Shown in pieces: positions 30,129 to 57,083 of a stretch of 64,000 bases of DNA. Each line of letters begins with the position of its first letter. Positions within the stretch are counted from its first letter, which is position 1. The notes under the pieces were generated by a model. It searched no databases and was not told the origin of the DNA. It saw nothing but the letters and a program-made list of their open reading frames with translations. The stretch lies in the NCBI RefSeq assembly GCF_003334305.1, contig NZ_QOWS01000003.1; one strand, given 5' to 3'. This DNA comes from Escherichia coli. GTDB lineage: Bacteria > Pseudomonadota > Gammaproteobacteria > Enterobacterales > Enterobacteriaceae. The translations under genes were made by a program, and so were the position numbers.

Positions 30129-30155
30129 CCCTCATATTCTGGAGGAATATGAGGG
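30129..30155. terminator. Stem-loop between convergent pac and yjiA
   Basis: Inverted repeat ccctcatattc-tggag-gaatatgaggg, 14 nt after the pac stop. Confidence 0.45.
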
Positions 30156-41662: not shown

Positions 41663-43129
41663 TCAGACTCCCCATTTCGGAATTGGATGGTCGCCCATGG
41701 AAATGCAGACGTTCTTCATTTCCGCGAACACTTCGAAGCTGTACTCACCGCCTTCACGTCCGGTGCCGGAGGCTTTTACGCCGCCAAACGGCTGGCGCAG
41801 GTCGCGGACGTTCTGGGTGTTGACGAACACCATGCCTGCTTCAATGCCACGCGCCAGGCGTAACACTTTGCTGACATCCTGTGTCCAGATGTACGACGCG
41901 AGGCCGTACTCCACGTCGTTTGCCAGGCGTAAGCCTTCGGCTTCGTCTTTAAACGGCAGCAGGCAGGCGACCGGCCCGAAAATCTCTTCCTGGGCGACGC
42001 GCATACGGTTATCAACGTCTGCCAGCACCGTTGGGCGCAGGAAGTTGCCGCCTTTCAGGTGTGCAGGCAGGTCAGACGGTTTATCCGGGCCGCCCGCCAG
42101 CAGGGTTGCGCCTTCTTCAATGCCGAGACGGATATAGCCGGAGACTTTTTCCCAGTGTTGCTGGCTGATAAGCGCCCCAACCTGGGTATTTGGATCGTTC
42201 GGATCGCCCACGCGCAGACGGTTGGCGCGTTCGGCAAAGCGTTTAACGAATTCCGGGTAGATGCTCTGCTGAATAAAGATGCGCGAACCGGCGGTGCAGC
42301 GTTCGCCGTTGATCGAGAAGATGGTGAACAGGGCGGCGTCCAGCGCGCGTTCAATATCAGCATCTTCAAAAATCAGCACCGGCGATTTACCGCCCAGTTC
42401 CATGGAGTATTTTTTCAGCCCGGCGTTTTTCATGATGTTGCGCCCGGTGGCGGTACCGCCGGTGAACGACACGGCACGCACGTCATGATGACGAACCAGC
42501 GCATCCCCTGCGGTTGCGCCGTAGCCCTGTACCACGTTCAGCACGCCTGCCGGAATACCGGCTTCCAGCGCCAGCTCACCCAGGCGGTCAGCGGTCAGCG
42601 GGGAGAGTTCCGACATCTTCAGCACCGCGGTATTGCCCAGCGCCAGACACGGCGCGACCTTCCAGGTGGCGGTCATAAACGGCACGTTCCACGGCGATAC
42701 CAGCGCACAAACGCCCACCGGCTGCACCAGCGTGTAGTTGAGCATCTTGTCGTCAACCGGATAGGTCTTGCCGTTCATCTGCTGGCAGACTTCCGCGAAA
42801 AATTCAAAGTTGTGAGAAGCGCGTGGGATCAACACATTTTTGGTCTGATGGATCGGCAGGCCCGTGTCCGCGGTTTCCATCGCGGCGATCTCCGGTACGT
42901 TCTGGTCGATCAGATCGCCCAGACGGCGCATCAGGCGCGCGCGCTCTTTCATCGGCAGATTGGCCCATTTCGGGAACGCCTCTTTCGCTGCCGCTACCGC
43001 CTGATTGATCTCCGCTTCACCGCCGGAGGCCACATCCGCCAGCACTTCACCCGTTGCCGGATTGGTAGTCTGGAAGTAGTCGTTACCTGCAACATTTTTA
43101 CCGTTGATCCAATGATTTACTTTTTTCAT
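41663..43129 (-). CDS. hpaE: 5-carboxymethyl-2-hydroxymuconate semialdehyde dehydrogenase
   Basis: 488-aa ORF; aldehyde dehydrogenase family; 1-nt gap to hpaD and 4-nt overlap with hpaG. Confidence 0.9.
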   Translation of the reverse strand: MKKVNHWINGKNVAGNDYFQTTNPATGEVLADVASGGEAEINQAVAAAKEAFPKWANLPMKERARLMRRLGDLIDQNVPEIAAMETADTGLPIHQTKNVLIPRASHNFEFFAEVCQQMNGKTYPVDDKMLNYTLVQPVGVCALVSPWNVPFMTATWKVAPCLALGNTAVLKMSELSPLTADRLGELALEAGIPAGVLNVVQGYGATAGDALVRHHDVRAVSFTGGTATGRNIMKNAGLKKYSMELGGKSPVLIFEDADIERALDAALFTIFSINGERCTAGSRIFIQQSIYPEFVKRFAERANRLRVGDPNDPNTQVGALISQQHWEKVSGYIRLGIEEGATLLAGGPDKPSDLPAHLKGGNFLRPTVLADVDNRMRVAQEEIFGPVACLLPFKDEAEGLRLANDVEYGLASYIWTQDVSKVLRLARGIEAGMVFVNTQNVRDLRQPFGGVKASGTGREGGEYSFEVFAEMKNVCISMGDHPIPKWGV

Positions 43130-44415
43130 TTCGCTGTTTCCTCACTCACAATTCGGTTCACCAGGCGGCCCACGCCTTCTACTTCCACCACCACTTCATC
43201 GCCAGGCACCACGTCAGATAAGCCTTTTGGTGTGCCGGTGGCGATCATGTCGCCCGGATTCAGGGTCATAAATTCGCTTAAGTAGGCGATCAGGAAGGGC
43301 ACGCTGAAGATCAGATCGGCGGTGGTGCCTTGCTGGCGTAACTCGCCGTTGACGAAGGTGCGAAGGGTCAGATTATGCGGGTCCGGGATCGCCTCTTTCG
43401 GCACGATGGTTGAAAGCATCGGCGTCAGTCCGTCGCGGCTTTTGACCCGCAGGTTAGGGCGGTAGTAGTTTTCCAGATAGTCGCGAATGGCGTAGTCGTT
43501 ACACACGGTGTAGCCCGCGACATAATCCATGGCATCGGCTTCGCTGACGTTACGCGCCTGTTTGCCAATAACTACCACCAGCTCCGCTTCATAGTGCATG
43601 TATTCAATATTGTTTGGACGCACGGAGGTCTGGTTATCGCCAGTGAGGGTATTTGGCGCTTTCAGGAACACCAGCGGTTCTTCCGGTGGCTTAAATTCCA
43701 GTTCGCTGGCGTGGTCGGCGTAGTTCAGGCCGAGGGCAAACAGCGTGCCGTGCGGGTGTGGCTGCGTTGGGAAGCTCTTGCGCGTGGTCACTTCACGTTC
43801 GTCCACTACCGGATTTTCCAGCGGCGGGAAACCTTCTGCGAGAACACGAACGCGATCGCCTGGCTGTATTTCCACGCGCGCCTGTGGCGTGCCGAGCAGA
43901 ATGGCATCGCCTGGATTCAGTGTGGCAAATTCGCTCAGGGCGCTCAGCAACTGCGCGGCGTTACGTTGTAAATCGGCGGTATTCCAGTGATCGGCAGGAC
44001 GCCCGTTGATCTCGGTATAGATGGTCAGATTATCGACATTGCTGAGAGCCACGGTTTCGCCAATGGGGCAGAATCCATCACGACATTTTGCTTTGATTGC
44101 CGGGCGGTAAAAGCTCTCTTCCGGCAGGCTGACGTCGTTAGCCAGCGCATATCCGGCGATGTACTCTGCCGCATCTTCTTCACGTACTTTCGTCGCCGTT
44201 TTTCCCACAATCAGCGCAACAGTCGCACCGCTCAGTACCTTTTCACCCTGTGGAAAGGGAATCGGTTCACCGCAACCAATCACCGTATTGCGCGGTTTAA
44301 TAAACCAGACCGCAGTTTTAGGCGGGGCTTTGTAGGGGGATTGCTGGAACGCTTCCTGCCATGCATCAAGTTGGCTGCGATGGTTCAACGCTACGGCGAA
44401 GATAGTGCCTTTCAT
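43126..44415 (-). CDS. hpaG: Bifunctional OPET decarboxylase / HHDD isomerase
   Basis: 429 aa from MKGTIFAVALNHRSQ with GAGGAG RBS; two FAH-like halves. Confidence 0.9.
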   Translation of the reverse strand: MKGTIFAVALNHRSQLDAWQEAFQQSPYKAPPKTAVWFIKPRNTVIGCGEPIPFPQGEKVLSGATVALIVGKTATKVREEDAAEYIAGYALANDVSLPEESFYRPAIKAKCRDGFCPIGETVALSNVDNLTIYTEINGRPADHWNTADLQRNAAQLLSALSEFATLNPGDAILLGTPQARVEIQPGDRVRVLAEGFPPLENPVVDEREVTTRKSFPTQPHPHGTLFALGLNYADHASELEFKPPEEPLVFLKAPNTLTGDNQTSVRPNNIEYMHYEAELVVVIGKQARNVSEADAMDYVAGYTVCNDYAIRDYLENYYRPNLRVKSRDGLTPMLSTIVPKEAIPDPHNLTLRTFVNGELRQQGTTADLIFSVPFLIAYLSEFMTLNPGDMIATGTPKGLSDVVPGDEVVVEVEGVGRLVNRIVSEETAK

Positions 44416-44440
44416 TACCACTCCTCGGATTCGATCATTT

Positions 44441-44464
44441 TAATCATTAATATGTTAATGATTA
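44441..44464. promoter_or_regulatory. Perfect palindrome in the hpaG promoter region, probable HpaR (MarR-type) operator
   Basis: TAATCATTAA-TATG-TTAATGATTA, 26-50 nt upstream of the hpaG ATG; a partial copy (ATTAATGATTTT) occurs at about 44652..44667 near the hpaR start. Confidence 0.4.
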
Positions 44465-44686
44465 CTTTTATTCCCGATTGCGTAGTTTGGCAAAAGTAAG
44501 TGATGTAAATGTGATCTAATTAACAAACTATTTACATTTAAAGATAATAAAATATTAAATATCAGCAAGTTAACAAAACATGCTCAATTTTGATAAAATG
44601 AAGAATTGCAGGGGCAGCGCAGTCCCGGTAACGTGATGATTAACTGTTTCTATATTAATGATTTTGAATTTTTCAGGGGAAAGATA

Positions 44687-45133
44687 ATGCACGACTCTCT
44701 AACCATTGCGTTGCTCCAGGCGCGAGAAGCGGCGATGAGTTATTTTCGCCCAATCGTTAAACGGCATAATTTGACTGAGCAACAGTGGCGCATCGTGCGT
44801 ATTCTGGCGGAAAGCCCATCAATGGATTTTCACGATCTGGCGTATCGCGCCTGCATTTTGCGCCCAAGCCTGACCGGGATCCTTACGCGGATGGAACGCG
44901 ACGGTTTAGTGTTGCGATTAAAGCCGATCAATGATCAGCGGAAGCTCTATATCTCGCTAACCAAAGAGGGGCAGGCGCTGTATAACCGCGCTCAGACACA
45001 GATTGAAGAAGCCTATCGGCAGATTGAAGCTCAGTTTACTGCCGAGAAAATGCAACAGTTAACCCATCTGTTAGAGGAATTTATTGCTCTGGGCAATTCC
45101 CGACAAGAAGACATCCCGGGCGATAATGAATAA
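44687..45133 (+). CDS. hpaR: MarR-family repressor of the hpa meta-cleavage operon
   Basis: 148 aa from MHDSLTIALLQAREAAMSYF; winged-helix MarR-like; divergent from hpaG. Confidence 0.85.
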   Translation: MHDSLTIALLQAREAAMSYFRPIVKRHNLTEQQWRIVRILAESPSMDFHDLAYRACILRPSLTGILTRMERDGLVLRLKPINDQRKLYISLTKEGQALYNRAQTQIEEAYRQIEAQFTAEKMQQLTHLLEEFIALGNSRQEDIPGDNE

Positions 45134-46927: not shown

Positions 46928-46957
46928 ATGCCCGATAAGCAAAATGTTATCGGGCAT
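46928..46957. terminator. Bidirectional stem-loop terminator between tsr and lgoT
   Basis: atgcccgataa-gcaaaatg-ttatcgggcat hairpin; followed by a T-run in the lgoT sense. Confidence 0.6.
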
Positions 46958-50714: not shown

Positions 50715-50743
50715 GTGTAGGTCGCACCTTATGCGACCTACAC
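50715..50743. terminator. Strong hairpin between convergent lgoD and opgB
   Basis: Perfect 12-bp stem gtgtaggtcgca / tgcgacctacac with 5-nt loop, directly adjacent to the opgB stop; REP-like sequence gtaggccgg just upstream. Confidence 0.5.
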
Positions 50744-55230: not shown

Positions 55231-55704
55231 TTATACGCGAGGGCGCTTGCGGTACAACCATAATCCAGGAATGGAAAGACCGATGGATAACGCACCAACA
55301 ATCGATGAAGCTGTAAGAAAGTTGGTTAACAGGGTAATCATCAACGGTTCGCTGTAACCTAACTGGCTGATTTTTACCGCCGAAATCATTGCGGTATAAG
55401 CCGATATGCCCGGGAACATAGGGATAACGGCCGCCACGGTAAACACTTTCGGATGCGCCAGATACCAGCGCGACCATTGAATACCAATGGTGCCGACCAG
55501 CATAGAAGCCATAAAGGTTGACCACTCAATATTCAGCCCGCTGGTCATTAAGATCATTCGTGAACCATGACCAATCGCGCCAAGCAGCGCACACCAGCGT
55601 AATGCCCGAACGGGAACGTTGAACACCATCGCAAAGCCGACCGCTGGAATGGCGGCGAGGATCATATCCTGCGCCAATGCAAACAGAAACTCGATCACAC
55701 CCAT
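55231..55704 (-). CDS. yjjB: Inner-membrane protein YjjB (putative succinate exporter subunit)
   Basis: 157 aa from [16 protein letters not shown]; hydrophobic; overlaps the yjjP 3' end by 10 nt. Confidence 0.8.
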
Positions 55705-56465
55705 CCGCGTAGCCCCCAAATCGTCAGTGCCATCACCACGCCGACGCAGGTAGCCAGTGTCAGCAGACTGGCGATCGCCCAGCGTGCCAGTCCGGTATTG
55801 ATGTGGCCTTTAAACATATCGGCGACGGCATTTATCAACGGAAATCCCGGCACCAGCAGCAGAACGCTGGCGGCCATCGCAATGGTGGGTGTATTGCTGA
55901 AGGTGGGAAGTTGCAAAAGCAAACCGGAAATAGTGGTGGCGGCGAAAGCGGTGAGGCAAAAGTTGATCTGTGGATGAAGATGACGTTGTGCCAGTAGCTG
56001 GCGGATATACATCGCGGCCGTACTGGCAAAGAAGGTGATGACGGCACCATCCCAGCCACCTTTATTGAGTTTACAGAAACAGGCGCAGGAAAGGCCAACC
56101 ATTAAGGCTACCAGCCATCTTGGGTAACGTAATGGCTGAATTTGGCTAAATCGTTTCTCTACGCCTTTGTAATCCAGCAGATGGTGCTCCGCCAGAATCA
56201 CAATGTGCTGGACTTCAGTCACCACATGCATATTAATGCCGCGATCGTGATTTTTACGTGTCGATGTCAGGCATTGCCCATCTTTAATGGTTGTCAGCAC
56301 TATGGCGTTCGAAGAGATAGAACTTTCAACGCTGTCCATTCCCAGCGCCCGACCCAGTCGTGAGGAAAGCTCATCAACCAACGCGCTTTCCGCACCATGT
56401 TGCAGAAGAAATAATCCACACTGGATACAAAGCCGTGTTACGGCTCGCTGTTGCTCAGTTTGCAT
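55695..56465 (-). CDS. yjjP: Inner-membrane protein YjjP (putative succinate exporter subunit)
   Basis: 256 aa from [18 protein letters not shown]; the longer ORF start is rejected. Confidence 0.8.
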
Positions 56466-57083
56466 AACTCGCCCTTTGTCATAGACGTGCTGCGTATTGT
56501 TCAGATAATGAGAATCCATTTGTATCATGAAGCACGGTTGTTTTGCGGTAGGTTAAGATCAAAATTGCGCTGATTAATCCTGGTTATCGGGACAAGCTCG
56601 GTGATAAAAAGCGAATTATCTCTCGCCGCAAACAAACTATCACATGAATATTATCACTATAATGAATTTATTGTTTGGCCTTTACGAATTAGGATAATAG
56701 ATAACCGGGCACGTTTTTTAATGTTAACAAGTTAAAACCATCAGATTTCATTGAATAAATATTGGTTGTGTGATTTTTCATTCTGCGGGAAGGGATATCA
56801 TTTAATTATAAATTAAATGAATGTGATTTCTGTTTTTCATTAAGTATTCCTAACAACTTAATGTAGATATTTTAAATGTCTCCAGGCTATTTCACCAGGT
56901 TATCATTTGATGCTAACCTTCTGACACATGCAGTGGAGTTGTTGTGCAGCAGGAGTATGCTGATATGAAAGTGAATGCTAAGGATAATTTATTCGCTTAA
57001 TCTATTAATTTGCTGGAAACATTTAAGGAATGAATATCCTGAATAAACCATCATGATTTTTAGACAGTGGATGTGGAGGAAAT

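What the first reader, a model, noticed from the sequence alone, without database searches (positions are those of the whole stretch)
44441..44464. Perfect 10-4-10 palindrome in the hpaG promoter: candidate HpaR operator
TAATCATTAA-TATG-TTAATGATTA lies 26-50 nt upstream of the hpaG start codon in the divergent hpaG/hpaR region. MarR-type repressors bind such dyads. A degenerate second copy (ATTAATGATTTT, about 44652..44667) sits just before the hpaR ATG, suggesting autoregulation.
Basis: partly seen in the sequence, partly recalled or inferred. Interest (0 to 1): 0.35.

Follow-up and report, generated by a model that had tools for sequence, protein, structure and literature searches.

The report
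Known HpaR operator in E. coli

Summary
The perfect 10-4-10 palindrome TAATCATTAA-TATG-TTAATGATTA is at 44441-44464, in the 271-bp AT-rich spacer between divergent hpaG (minus strand, ATG 44415) and hpaR (plus strand, ATG 44687) of an E. coli chromosome. It is not chance: 0 of 100 window shuffles, and p about 0.006 for any such palindrome in the shuffled spacer. It abuts a predicted Pg -10 hexamer and so covers the transcription start. A weight-matrix scan puts the second-best match in all 64 kb at 44641-44664, 200 bp away. That is about +47 of the predicted hpaR promoter, the position the literature gives for the second HpaR operator. The 7-4-7 core TCATTAA-YATR-TTAATGA lies between hpaG and hpaR in 39 species of about 20 enterobacterial genera, at a fixed offset from -10. 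A second site lies 196-201 bp away in 32 of the 39. Galan et al. 2003 (Nucleic Acids Res 31:6598) mapped HpaR operators OPR1 and OPR2 here and proposed a repression loop. I could not open that paper and rely on two citing papers plus memory. Verdict: observation confirmed, interpretation supported, already known, low interest. The only modest addition is the conserved spacing of about 199 bp.

The parts
44441..44464 (.). Primary HpaR operator (OPR1 of the literature): perfect 10-4-10 dyad TAATCATTAA-TATG-TTAATGATTA
   Evidence: It is the best weight-matrix hit in the whole window, 37.5 bits. The 40-mer around it matches in 2034 of 2073 hpa-positive E. coli genomes; the two sampled variants differ only at 44439, outside the dyad.
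44444..44461 (.). Conserved 7-4-7 core TCATTAA-TATG-TTAATGA (consensus TCRTTAA-YATR-TTAAYGA)
   Evidence: Longest invariant block in the E. coli/Klebsiella/Erwinia spacer alignment. Present between hpaG and hpaR in 39 species.
44641..44664 (.). Auxiliary HpaR operator (OPR2 of the literature): TAACTGTTTCTATATTAATGATTT, with a good right half TTAATGATT and a degenerate left half
Evidence: 75% identical to OPR1 in the register 44640-44663, 200 bp away. Second-best weight-matrix hit in all 64 kb. Centre is about +47 of the predicted Pr start, matching PMC6888825. Unchanged in the divergent allele L043.
44465..44470 (-). Predicted Pg -10 hexamer TAAAAG, directly abutting the dyad
   Evidence: Read from the minus strand. 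TAAAA(G/C) is conserved 3-4 nt upstream of the dyad core in most of the 39 species. Prediction only: the consensus scan did not call it because it lacks the final T.
44488..44493 (-). Predicted Pg -35 hexamer TTGCCA, 17-nt spacer to the -10
   Evidence: TTGC(C/G/T)(A/T) is conserved at the same spacing across species.
44570..44599 (+). Predicted hpaR promoter Pr: -35 TTAACA (44570-44575), 18-nt spacer, TG-extended -10 TAAAAT (44594-44599); start near 44606
   Evidence: 10 of 12 consensus matches, TG before the -10. It places the OPR2 centre (44652.5) at about +47.
43126..44415 (-). hpaG, first gene of the hpaGEDFHI meta-cleavage operon (the repressed target)
   Evidence: NCBIfam NF011750, 979 bits against a cutoff of 811, full length. 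RefSeq annotation of identical loci.
44687..45133 (+). hpaR, MarR-family repressor (the protein that binds the dyad)
   Evidence: TIGR02337 HpaR equivalog, 201 bits against a cutoff of 121. Closest solved relatives are NadR 5aip, 2fbi, and A. baumannii HpaR 7el2/7el3.

Best explanation
The dyad is the high-affinity operator (OPR1) of the MarR-family repressor HpaR in the Pg promoter of the hpaGEDFHI homoprotocatechuate meta-cleavage operon of E. coli. One HpaR dimer places its two winged-helix domains on the two TCATTAA half-sites. The dyad begins immediately downstream of the -10 hexamer and spans the transcription start, so bound HpaR blocks RNA polymerase. A weaker, half-degenerate site (OPR2, 44641-44664) lies 200 bp away at about +47 of the hpaR promoter. 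Its occupancy gives autoregulation of hpaR and probably cooperates with OPR1 through a DNA loop of about 19 helical turns. The pathway substrates 4-HPA, 3-HPA and 3,4-dihydroxyphenylacetate release HpaR and de-repress both promoters. Shown here: the sequence anatomy, gene identities, non-randomness, conservation of both sites, conserved offset from the promoter, and conserved inter-site spacing. Taken from the literature: HpaR binding, repression, the +47 position, the loop proposal and the inducers. Inferred: the exact Pg start site and steric occlusion.
For: - The perfect dyad is unique in the window and absent from shuffles.
- The divergent neighbours are HpaR (TIGR02337, 201 bits) and HpaG.
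- The matrix scan ranks 44441 first and 44641 second in the whole 64 kb.
- The predicted Pr start near 44606 puts the OPR2 centre at about +47. PMC6888825 reports that position for HpaR binding in the hpaR promoter, citing Galan 2003, and also reports repression of both hpaG and hpaR and a proposed loop between two sites.
- PMC7180172 footprinted Yersinia HpaR on two TTAA-N4-TTAA sites 'similar to E. coli W'.
- Protein-based, motif-independent retrieval of orthologous loci found the core upstream of the hpaG homologue in Klebsiella and in two Erwinia, with a second site near hpaR in Klebsiella (200 bp) and Erwinia sp. E602 (186 bp).
- The pattern scan found the core between hpaG and hpaR in 39 species, always 3-4 nt downstream of a conserved TAAAA(G/C) -10 and a TTGCNN -35, while the distance from dyad to ATG varies.
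- The best second site lies 196-201 bp away in 32 of 39 species, although its distance to the hpaR start varies from 23 to 83 nt in those species.
- In a divergent E. coli allele with about 35 changes across the 271-bp spacer, all 20 arm positions and all 24 OPR2 positions are intact.
Against: - No binding experiment can be done here, and the primary paper (Galan et al. 2003, PMC275547) could not be opened. The identification of this exact 24-mer with 'OPR1' therefore rests on secondary descriptions plus my recollection of its abstract (a perfect palindrome overlapping the Pg +1).
- The Pg -10 TAAAAG is a weak hexamer that the consensus scan did not call, so the start site is only predicted.
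- The 39-species set was selected by the motif itself, so it demonstrates linkage to hpa genes and positional conservation, not how often the motif is present.
- Proteus and Photobacterium hpaR loci showed no such core.
- Conserved spacing could partly reflect shared ancestry rather than selection for looping.
- Serratia plymuthica HpaR did not bind 4-HPA or 3,4-HPA by ITC in one study (PMC10364317), so inducer details may differ between species.
Confidence: 0.93

Rival explanations
1. The dyad is primarily the site of a different DNA-binding protein (for example FabR, IHF, Fis, CRP or another nucleoid-associated or global factor known to act on this AT-rich spacer), and HpaR binds elsewhere.
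For: Salmonella FabR gave a ChIP-chip/ChIP-qPCR signal in the hpaR/hpaG intergenic region (PMC4804515). That paper's reference list also cites work on FIS control of the meta-hpa operon. The spacer is 30% GC, typical of nucleoid-protein targets.
Against: The proposed FabR core ACAnnTGTnnnnT is not the dyad, and hpaR/hpaG expression did not change in the fabR mutant. The dyad carries the TTAA-N4-TTAA motif footprinted for HpaR. The same dyad travels with HpaR-like genes even in distant lineages with unrelated neighbours, such as Granulosicoccaceae MAGs and Rugamonas, which ties it to the regulator rather than to enterobacterial global factors.
Confidence: 0.03
2. The palindrome acts as a nucleic-acid hairpin: a 5'-UTR structure in hpaG mRNA, a terminator or attenuator, or a cruciform, rather than as a protein operator.
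For: Both strands can form a 10-bp stem with a 4-nt loop. The plus-strand version is followed by CTTTTATT and folds better than all 200 shuffles (z = -3.2).
Against: The stem is almost pure A-U (-6.7 kcal/mol). No terminator-like site was called and there was no credible Rfam match (best E = 0.64, far below the gathering score). On the hpaG strand the fold is not significant (z = -1.6). With the predicted start inside the dyad, only part of it would be transcribed. Across species the half-site sequence itself is invariant rather than co-varying, and the outer arm positions are not kept complementary. The dyad keeps a fixed offset from the -10 but a variable distance to the start codon.
Confidence: 0.02
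3. A chance palindrome in AT-rich intergenic DNA with no function.
For: AT-rich, low-complexity DNA produces short palindromes more often than average sequence. The window has other perfect palindromes.
Against: p is about 0.006 within the shuffled spacer. The core is invariant across about 20 genera, while the surrounding spacer aligns at about 55% column identity. It is preserved in a divergent E. coli allele.
Confidence: 0.01

Closest known systems
HpaR operators OPR1/OPR2 of the E. coli W hpa-meta (Pg) and hpaR (Pr) promoters (Galan, Kolb, Sanz, Garcia, Prieto 2003, Nucleic Acids Res 31:6598)
   Same: Same species, same genes, same intergenic region. Two sites, one a palindrome at the Pg start and one at about +47 of Pr; repression of both promoters; proposed repression loop (PMC6888825; PMC7180172). 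I consider the window's dyad to be this element.
   Different: Nothing substantive. The window comes from a different E. coli strain. I could not read the primary figure to confirm base-for-base identity with the strain W sequence (Z37980.2). The names OPR1/OPR2 and the 'perfect palindrome overlapping +1' wording are from my memory of the abstract.
Yersinia pseudotuberculosis HpaR sites 1 and 2 in the hpaG1 promoter (Wang et al. 2020, PMC7180172)
   Same: Two footprinted 15-bp sites with TTAA-N4-TTAA. One overlaps the core promoter, the other is distal, and HpaR represses the operon.
   Different: In Yersinia the proximal site is centred at -8 (overlapping the -10) and the distal one is at -189, giving about 181 bp rather than 196-201 bp. 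Yersinia HpaR also activates T6SS4 from an unrelated, GC-richer imperfect site.
Acinetobacter baumannii HpaR-DNA complex (PDB 7EL3; Permsirivisarn et al. 2022, FEBS J 289:3217)
   Same: Homologous MarR-type HpaR (E = 1e-32 to the window protein) bound as a dimer to a pseudo-palindromic operator with symmetric base contacts (as described in PMC12541388).
   Different: More distant protein. I could not inspect its operator sequence or genomic arrangement.
Neisseria meningitidis NadR (PDB 5AIP), the 4-HPA-responsive repressor of nadA
   Same: Closest solved relative of the window's HpaR (E = 5.7e-44). PMC2791445 reports 50% identity to HpaR. It is released from multiple operators by 4-HPA.
   Different: It controls an adhesin gene, not a catabolic operon, and its operator layout is coupled to a phase-variable repeat.

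Membership tests
E. coli HpaR operator OPR1 (Pg promoter) | Lies in the spacer between divergent hpaG and hpaR of an E. coli hpa cluster | tested here: met
   HpaG and HpaR equivalog hits; 100% identical spacer in many E. coli chromosomes annotated hpaG/hpaR.
E. coli HpaR operator OPR1 (Pg promoter) | Perfect palindromic sequence containing the HpaR motif TTAA-N4-TTAA | tested here: met
   The motif is as described in PMC7180172.
E. coli HpaR operator OPR1 (Pg promoter) | Overlaps the transcription start / core promoter of Pg | tested here: inconclusive
   Supported only by prediction. TTGCCA-17-TAAAAG ends at 44465, 1 nt from the dyad, and this architecture is conserved in 39 species. There are no mapped start-site data in hand, and the consensus scan did not call this weak -10.
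E. coli HpaR operator OPR1 (Pg promoter) | Companion weaker operator (OPR2) at about +47 of the hpaR promoter | tested here: met
   Site 44641-44664. The predicted Pr start near 44606 gives a centre of about +47, as stated in PMC6888825.
E. coli HpaR operator OPR1 (Pg promoter) | Physically bound by purified HpaR and released by 4-HPA, 3-HPA or 3,4-dihydroxyphenylacetate | not testable with these tools
   Requires EMSA or footprinting. Reported in the literature (Galan 2003, as cited).
MarR-family operator (general) | Dyad of about 16-24 bp next to, and usually divergent from, the gene for a MarR-family regulator, overlapping promoter elements | tested here: met
   General description of the family in PMC8070244.
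Intrinsic (rho-independent) terminator | G+C-rich stem followed by a T run on the transcribed strand | tested here: not met
   No site called. Only one G-C pair per stem, -6.7 kcal/mol.
Any curated structured RNA (Rfam 15) | Covariance-model match at or above the gathering score | tested here: not met
   best hits 20.6 and 12.9 bits against gathering scores of 67 and 39; E = 0.64-0.67.

The most novel reading that the evidence does not exclude
The primary and auxiliary HpaR operators are held 196-201 bp apart (about 19 helical turns) in 32 of 39 enterobacterial species examined. This holds despite heavy sequence divergence of the DNA between them and variable distances to both start codons. 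It would mean that a looped complex of two HpaR dimers is an obligatory, selected part of the switch, which is unusual for MarR-family repressors. In addition, the same dyad marks further targets in some lineages: hpaX and an MFS transporter in Serratia, and regulator-hpaB operons of distant HpaR-like proteins.
Probability: 0.45. Interest if true: 0.35.

Novelty: already known. Interest (0 to 1): 0.12.

Why it matters
For the scan it matters as a calibration point. A reader working from sequence alone correctly recovered an experimentally mapped operator, its regulator and the autoregulatory second site. Biologically the element is the switch that lets hpa-positive E. coli (2073 of 5426 complete genomes here) and relatives turn on catabolism of 4-hydroxyphenylacetate, a tyrosine-derived aromatic compound. 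The HpaR/Pg pair could also serve as a sensor part. The only increment beyond the literature is comparative. It consists of a consensus TCRTTAA-YATR-TTAAYGA, its fixed offset from the -10, and a conserved inter-operator distance of about 199 bp. These give independent support to the published loop model and make it directly testable with phasing mutants.

Tried and rejected
1. **Primary paper.** I tried to read it by DOI and by PMC id, and tried a review by PMC id. None is held. A full-text search for HpaR with OPR1 found nothing, so operator names and some details rest on memory plus two citing papers.
2. **Spacer inversion.** I considered that the CATA (rather than TATG) spacer in E. coli L043 was a palindrome-mediated inversion. 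I rejected this. That allele differs at about 35 positions of the spacer, and both spacer positions vary independently (Y-AT-R) across genera.
3. **Hairpin, terminator or RNA reading.** Rejected.
4. **FabR site.** Rejected as the main function.
5. **Other genera.** The Proteus mirabilis and Photobacterium hpaR loci showed no TTAA-N4-TTAA core near hpaR. I did not pursue whether their operators have diverged.
6. **Further HpaR-type sites in the window** (for example upstream of hpaX, hpaA or hpaBC). None scored above the weak OPR2.
7. **Motif-independent genome scan.** I did not run a peptide-based scan of genome contigs.

Full report
**Observation.** Window 44441-44464 reads TAATCATTAATATGTTAATGATTA. 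It has two perfectly complementary 10-nt arms around the 4-nt spacer TATG. The 10-N4-10 pattern occurs once in the 64-kb window even with three mismatches allowed, and never in 100 dinucleotide shuffles. The surrounding DNA is AT-rich (271-bp spacer, 30% GC against 51% for the window), so I also used a local null. A perfect inverted repeat with 10-nt arms and a spacer of 0-8 nt arises in 125 of 20,000 shuffles of the spacer. The window holds six such loci against 0.57 expected from Markov simulations.

**Context.** The window is E. coli. The 341 bp around the dyad are 100% identical to many E. coli chromosomes, where the flanking genes are annotated hpaG and hpaR, and the region is present in 2073 of 5426 complete genomes. 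The minus-strand gene ending at 44415 is HpaG (NF011750, 979 bits, full length). The plus-strand gene from 44687 is HpaR (TIGR02337 equivalog, 201 bits against a cutoff of 121). The closest solved relatives of HpaR are the 4-HPA-responsive NadR (5aip), 2fbi, and A. baumannii HpaR, whose DNA complex is 7el3.

**Anatomy of the control region.** Read on the hpaG strand, a TTGCCA hexamer (44493-44488) is followed after 17 nt by TAAAAG (44470-44465), and the dyad starts at the very next base. A start site about 7 nt downstream of that -10 would fall inside the first half-site, so a bound dimer would cover roughly -6 to +18. On the other strand, the consensus scan finds TTAACA-18-TG-TAAAAT (44570-44599), which puts the hpaR start near 44606.

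The repeat finder aligned a second element to the dyad at 75% identity exactly 200 bp away, in the register 44640-44663 against 44440-44463. It also found a perfect 12-nt match, AATCATTAATAT/ATATTAATGATT. In the matrix register the element is 44641-44664, TAACTGTTTCTATATTAATGATTT. A weight matrix built from orthologous sites ranks the dyad first (37.5 bits) and this second element second (3.7 bits) among all positions of the 64-kb window. Its centre lies at about +47 of the predicted hpaR promoter.

**Literature.** I remember this region as the subject of Galan, Kolb, Sanz, Garcia and Prieto (2003) Nucleic Acids Res 31:6598. As I recall it, they purified HpaR, showed that it represses Pg and its own promoter Pr, and identified 4-HPA, 3-HPA and 3,4-dihydroxyphenylacetate as inducers. 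They mapped two operators: OPR1, a perfect palindrome overlapping the Pg start, and OPR2, downstream of the Pr start. They also proposed cooperative binding through a loop. The tools do not hold that paper, so those details are from memory. Two papers that are held corroborate the essentials.
- PMC6888825 states that HpaR binds the hpaR-hpaGEDFHI intergenic region and represses the hpaG operon and hpaR. [quoted passage not shown]
- PMC7180172 footprinted Yersinia HpaR on two sites with TTAA-N4-TTAA 'similar to E. coli W', one overlapping the -10.
- PMC12541388 describes the A. baumannii HpaR-DNA structure as a dimer making symmetric contacts on a pseudo-palindrome.

The sequence features in the window match each of these statements.

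**Independent comparative test.** Orthologous hpaR loci retrieved by protein similarity from the plasmid collection do not depend on the motif.
- The core lies just upstream of the hpaG homologue in Klebsiella (ATTTCGTTAATATATTAATGATCA), Erwinia sp. E602 and E. persicina.
- Klebsiella has a second TTAA-N4-TTAA site next to hpaR, again 200 bp from the first. Erwinia sp. E602 has a second site at 186 bp.
- In the MAFFT alignment of these spacers, the longest invariant block is TC.TTAA.AT.TTAATGA (44444-44461), while mean column identity is 55%.

Within E. coli, the 40-mer around the dyad matches in 2034 of 2073 hpa-positive genomes, and the 40-mer around the second site in 1955. Sampled variants differ at 44439 and 44637, outside the elements. 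A strongly divergent allele (L043, about 35 differences in the spacer) keeps all 20 arm positions and all 24 positions of the second site. Only the two outer spacer bases changed, TATG to CATA.

About 50 lie directly between HpaR and HpaG homologues, and the rest are mostly scattered hits in AT-rich MAGs. I analysed 39 species from about 20 genera, including Enterobacter, Klebsiella, Raoultella, Citrobacter, Salmonella, Kluyvera, Leclercia, Lelliottia, Pseudocitrobacter, Trabulsiella, Shimwellia, Serratia, Erwinia, Budvicia, Chimaeribacter and Entomohabitans. HpaR identity falls to 64% in this set. The set is motif-selected, so it cannot show how often the motif is present, but it does show three things.
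1. The dyad sits 3-4 nt downstream of a conserved TAAAA(G/C) hexamer and a TTGCNN hexamer 17 nt further up in most species. The distance from the dyad to the hpaG ATG varies from about 20 to 60 nt. The element is therefore positioned relative to the promoter, not to the ribosome-binding site.
2. Only the inner 7+7 nt are conserved. The outer 3 nt that make the E. coli arms a perfect 10 are lineage-specific and not kept complementary. That is what a protein-binding site predicts, and a hairpin does not.
3. The best second site, searched anywhere between the dyad and hpaR, lies 196-201 bp from the dyad in 32 of 39 species. Its distance to the hpaR start ranges from 23 to 83 nt in those species. 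Exceptions are some Serratia (114 bp), a weak E. persicina NBRC hit (110), Budvicia (168), Chimaeribacter (186) and Entomohabitans (193).

A distance of 199.5 bp is 19 turns of 10.5 bp, so the result fits the published loop model. Shared ancestry is an alternative explanation that I cannot exclude.

**Rival readings.** No Rfam family matches. No terminator-like site is called. The hairpin is a 10-bp, almost pure A-U stem of -6.7 kcal/mol, and its fold on the hpaG strand is not significant. Salmonella FabR gives a ChIP signal somewhere in this spacer, but its proposed motif is different and the fabR mutant shows no change in hpaR or hpaG expression. Chance is excluded by the null tests and by conservation.

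**Mechanism.** An HpaR dimer binds the TCATTAA/TTAATGA half-sites at the Pg start and excludes RNA polymerase. This step is inferred from position. The binding itself comes from the literature. A second, weaker site at +47 of Pr is filled, probably cooperatively through a loop of about 200 bp, which gives autoregulation. This part comes from the literature, supported here by the conserved spacing. Hydroxyphenylacetates release the repressor (literature). I put confidence that the dyad is the HpaR operator at 0.93.

**Novelty and score.** Its interest as a discovery is low (0.12). The comparative consensus, the fixed promoter offset and the conserved inter-operator distance are small additions. 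Extra copies of the dyad may hint at a wider regulon, but I only partly followed these up. They lie upstream of hpaX in Serratia grimesii (HpaX 658 bits), upstream of an MFS transporter in S. marcescens and S. bockelmannii, and upstream of distant HpaR-like regulators in Granulosicoccaceae MAGs and Rugamonas.

Noticed in passing
L045:319-336 (Serratia grimesii); L070:5379, L054:5560, L116:714 (S. marcescens / S. bockelmannii); L011:1596 (S. oryzae): The same HpaR-type dyad occurs away from hpaG/hpaR. It lies about 30 nt upstream of hpaX (TIGR02332, 658 bits against a cutoff of 615), about 105 nt upstream of an uncharacterised MFS transporter (aromatic-acid/H+ symporter-like, below family cutoffs), and 256 nt upstream of a Bcr/CflA efflux gene. 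This suggests extra HpaR targets in Serratia.
   Followed up: partly
L013:5104-5121 and L119:1756-1773 (Granulosicoccaceae MAGs); L072:2079-2096 (Rugamonas); L005:32-43 (P. aeruginosa plasmid): Distant HpaR-like MarR genes (33-36% identity, TIGR02337 scores just below the cutoff) carry the identical dyad immediately upstream. In L013 the regulator is followed by hpaB (TIGR02309, 533 bits). In P. aeruginosa a TTAA-N4-TTAA core lies upstream of the bcr-1/hpaR-like gene pair. The operator sequence seems far more conserved than the protein.
   Followed up: partly
L007:601-811 (E. coli BS-04 chromosome): About 210 bp of the hpaG-hpaR spacer (88% identical, lacking the OPR1 end) survive between btsT and tsr in a strain with no hpa genes. 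This looks like a scar of loss of the hpa cluster.
   Followed up: no
window 56798-56820: Another perfect AT-rich palindrome, 10-3-10, TCATTTAATTATAAATTAAATGA. It lies in the spacer between a yjjP-like membrane-protein gene (55695-56528, minus) and a LuxR-type regulator gene (57084-57809, plus). It is the third-best hit of the HpaR matrix (2.6 bits) but has different half-sites. Function not examined.
   Followed up: no
window 44506-44527 and 44556-44577: A 22-nt direct repeat (77% identical, 50 bp apart) inside the hpaG-hpaR spacer. The first copy contains TGTGATCTAATTAACA (44510-44525), a CRP-like site centred about 60-61 bp upstream of the predicted Pg start. This fits the catabolite control of Pg that I recall from the literature (not verified here).
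   Followed up: no
window 46929-46956; also 5220-5240, 30129-30155, 50716-50742: Other perfect inverted repeats with arms of at least 10 nt. The one at 46929-46956 lies between the convergent stop codons of tsr (46916) and an MFS transporter gene (46965) and is probably a bidirectional terminator. The others were not examined.
   Followed up: no
L028-L032 (Bacteroidales MAG KTt_bin-0938, five contigs): The search pattern occurs about 85-118 nt from a contig end on five contigs of one MAG. That is the signature of a repeated mobile element breaking the assembly, and it is unrelated to hpa genes.
   Followed up: no
L001:1272-1436 (Klebsiella pneumoniae plasmid pKLP00155_3): The record annotates a 54-aa hypothetical protein across the hpaG-hpaR spacer, starting within the primary operator. 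It is probably a spurious gene call. The whole hpa cluster is plasmid-borne here.
   Followed up: no
L009:4316-4333 and L021:2950-2967 (Citrobacter werkmanii, C. youngae): A 24-nt near-perfect version of the dyad (TCGTTAATATATTAACGA core) lies about 280-290 nt upstream of a TolC-family outer-membrane gene in two Citrobacter species, with no hpa gene nearby. It could be chance or another target.
   Followed up: no
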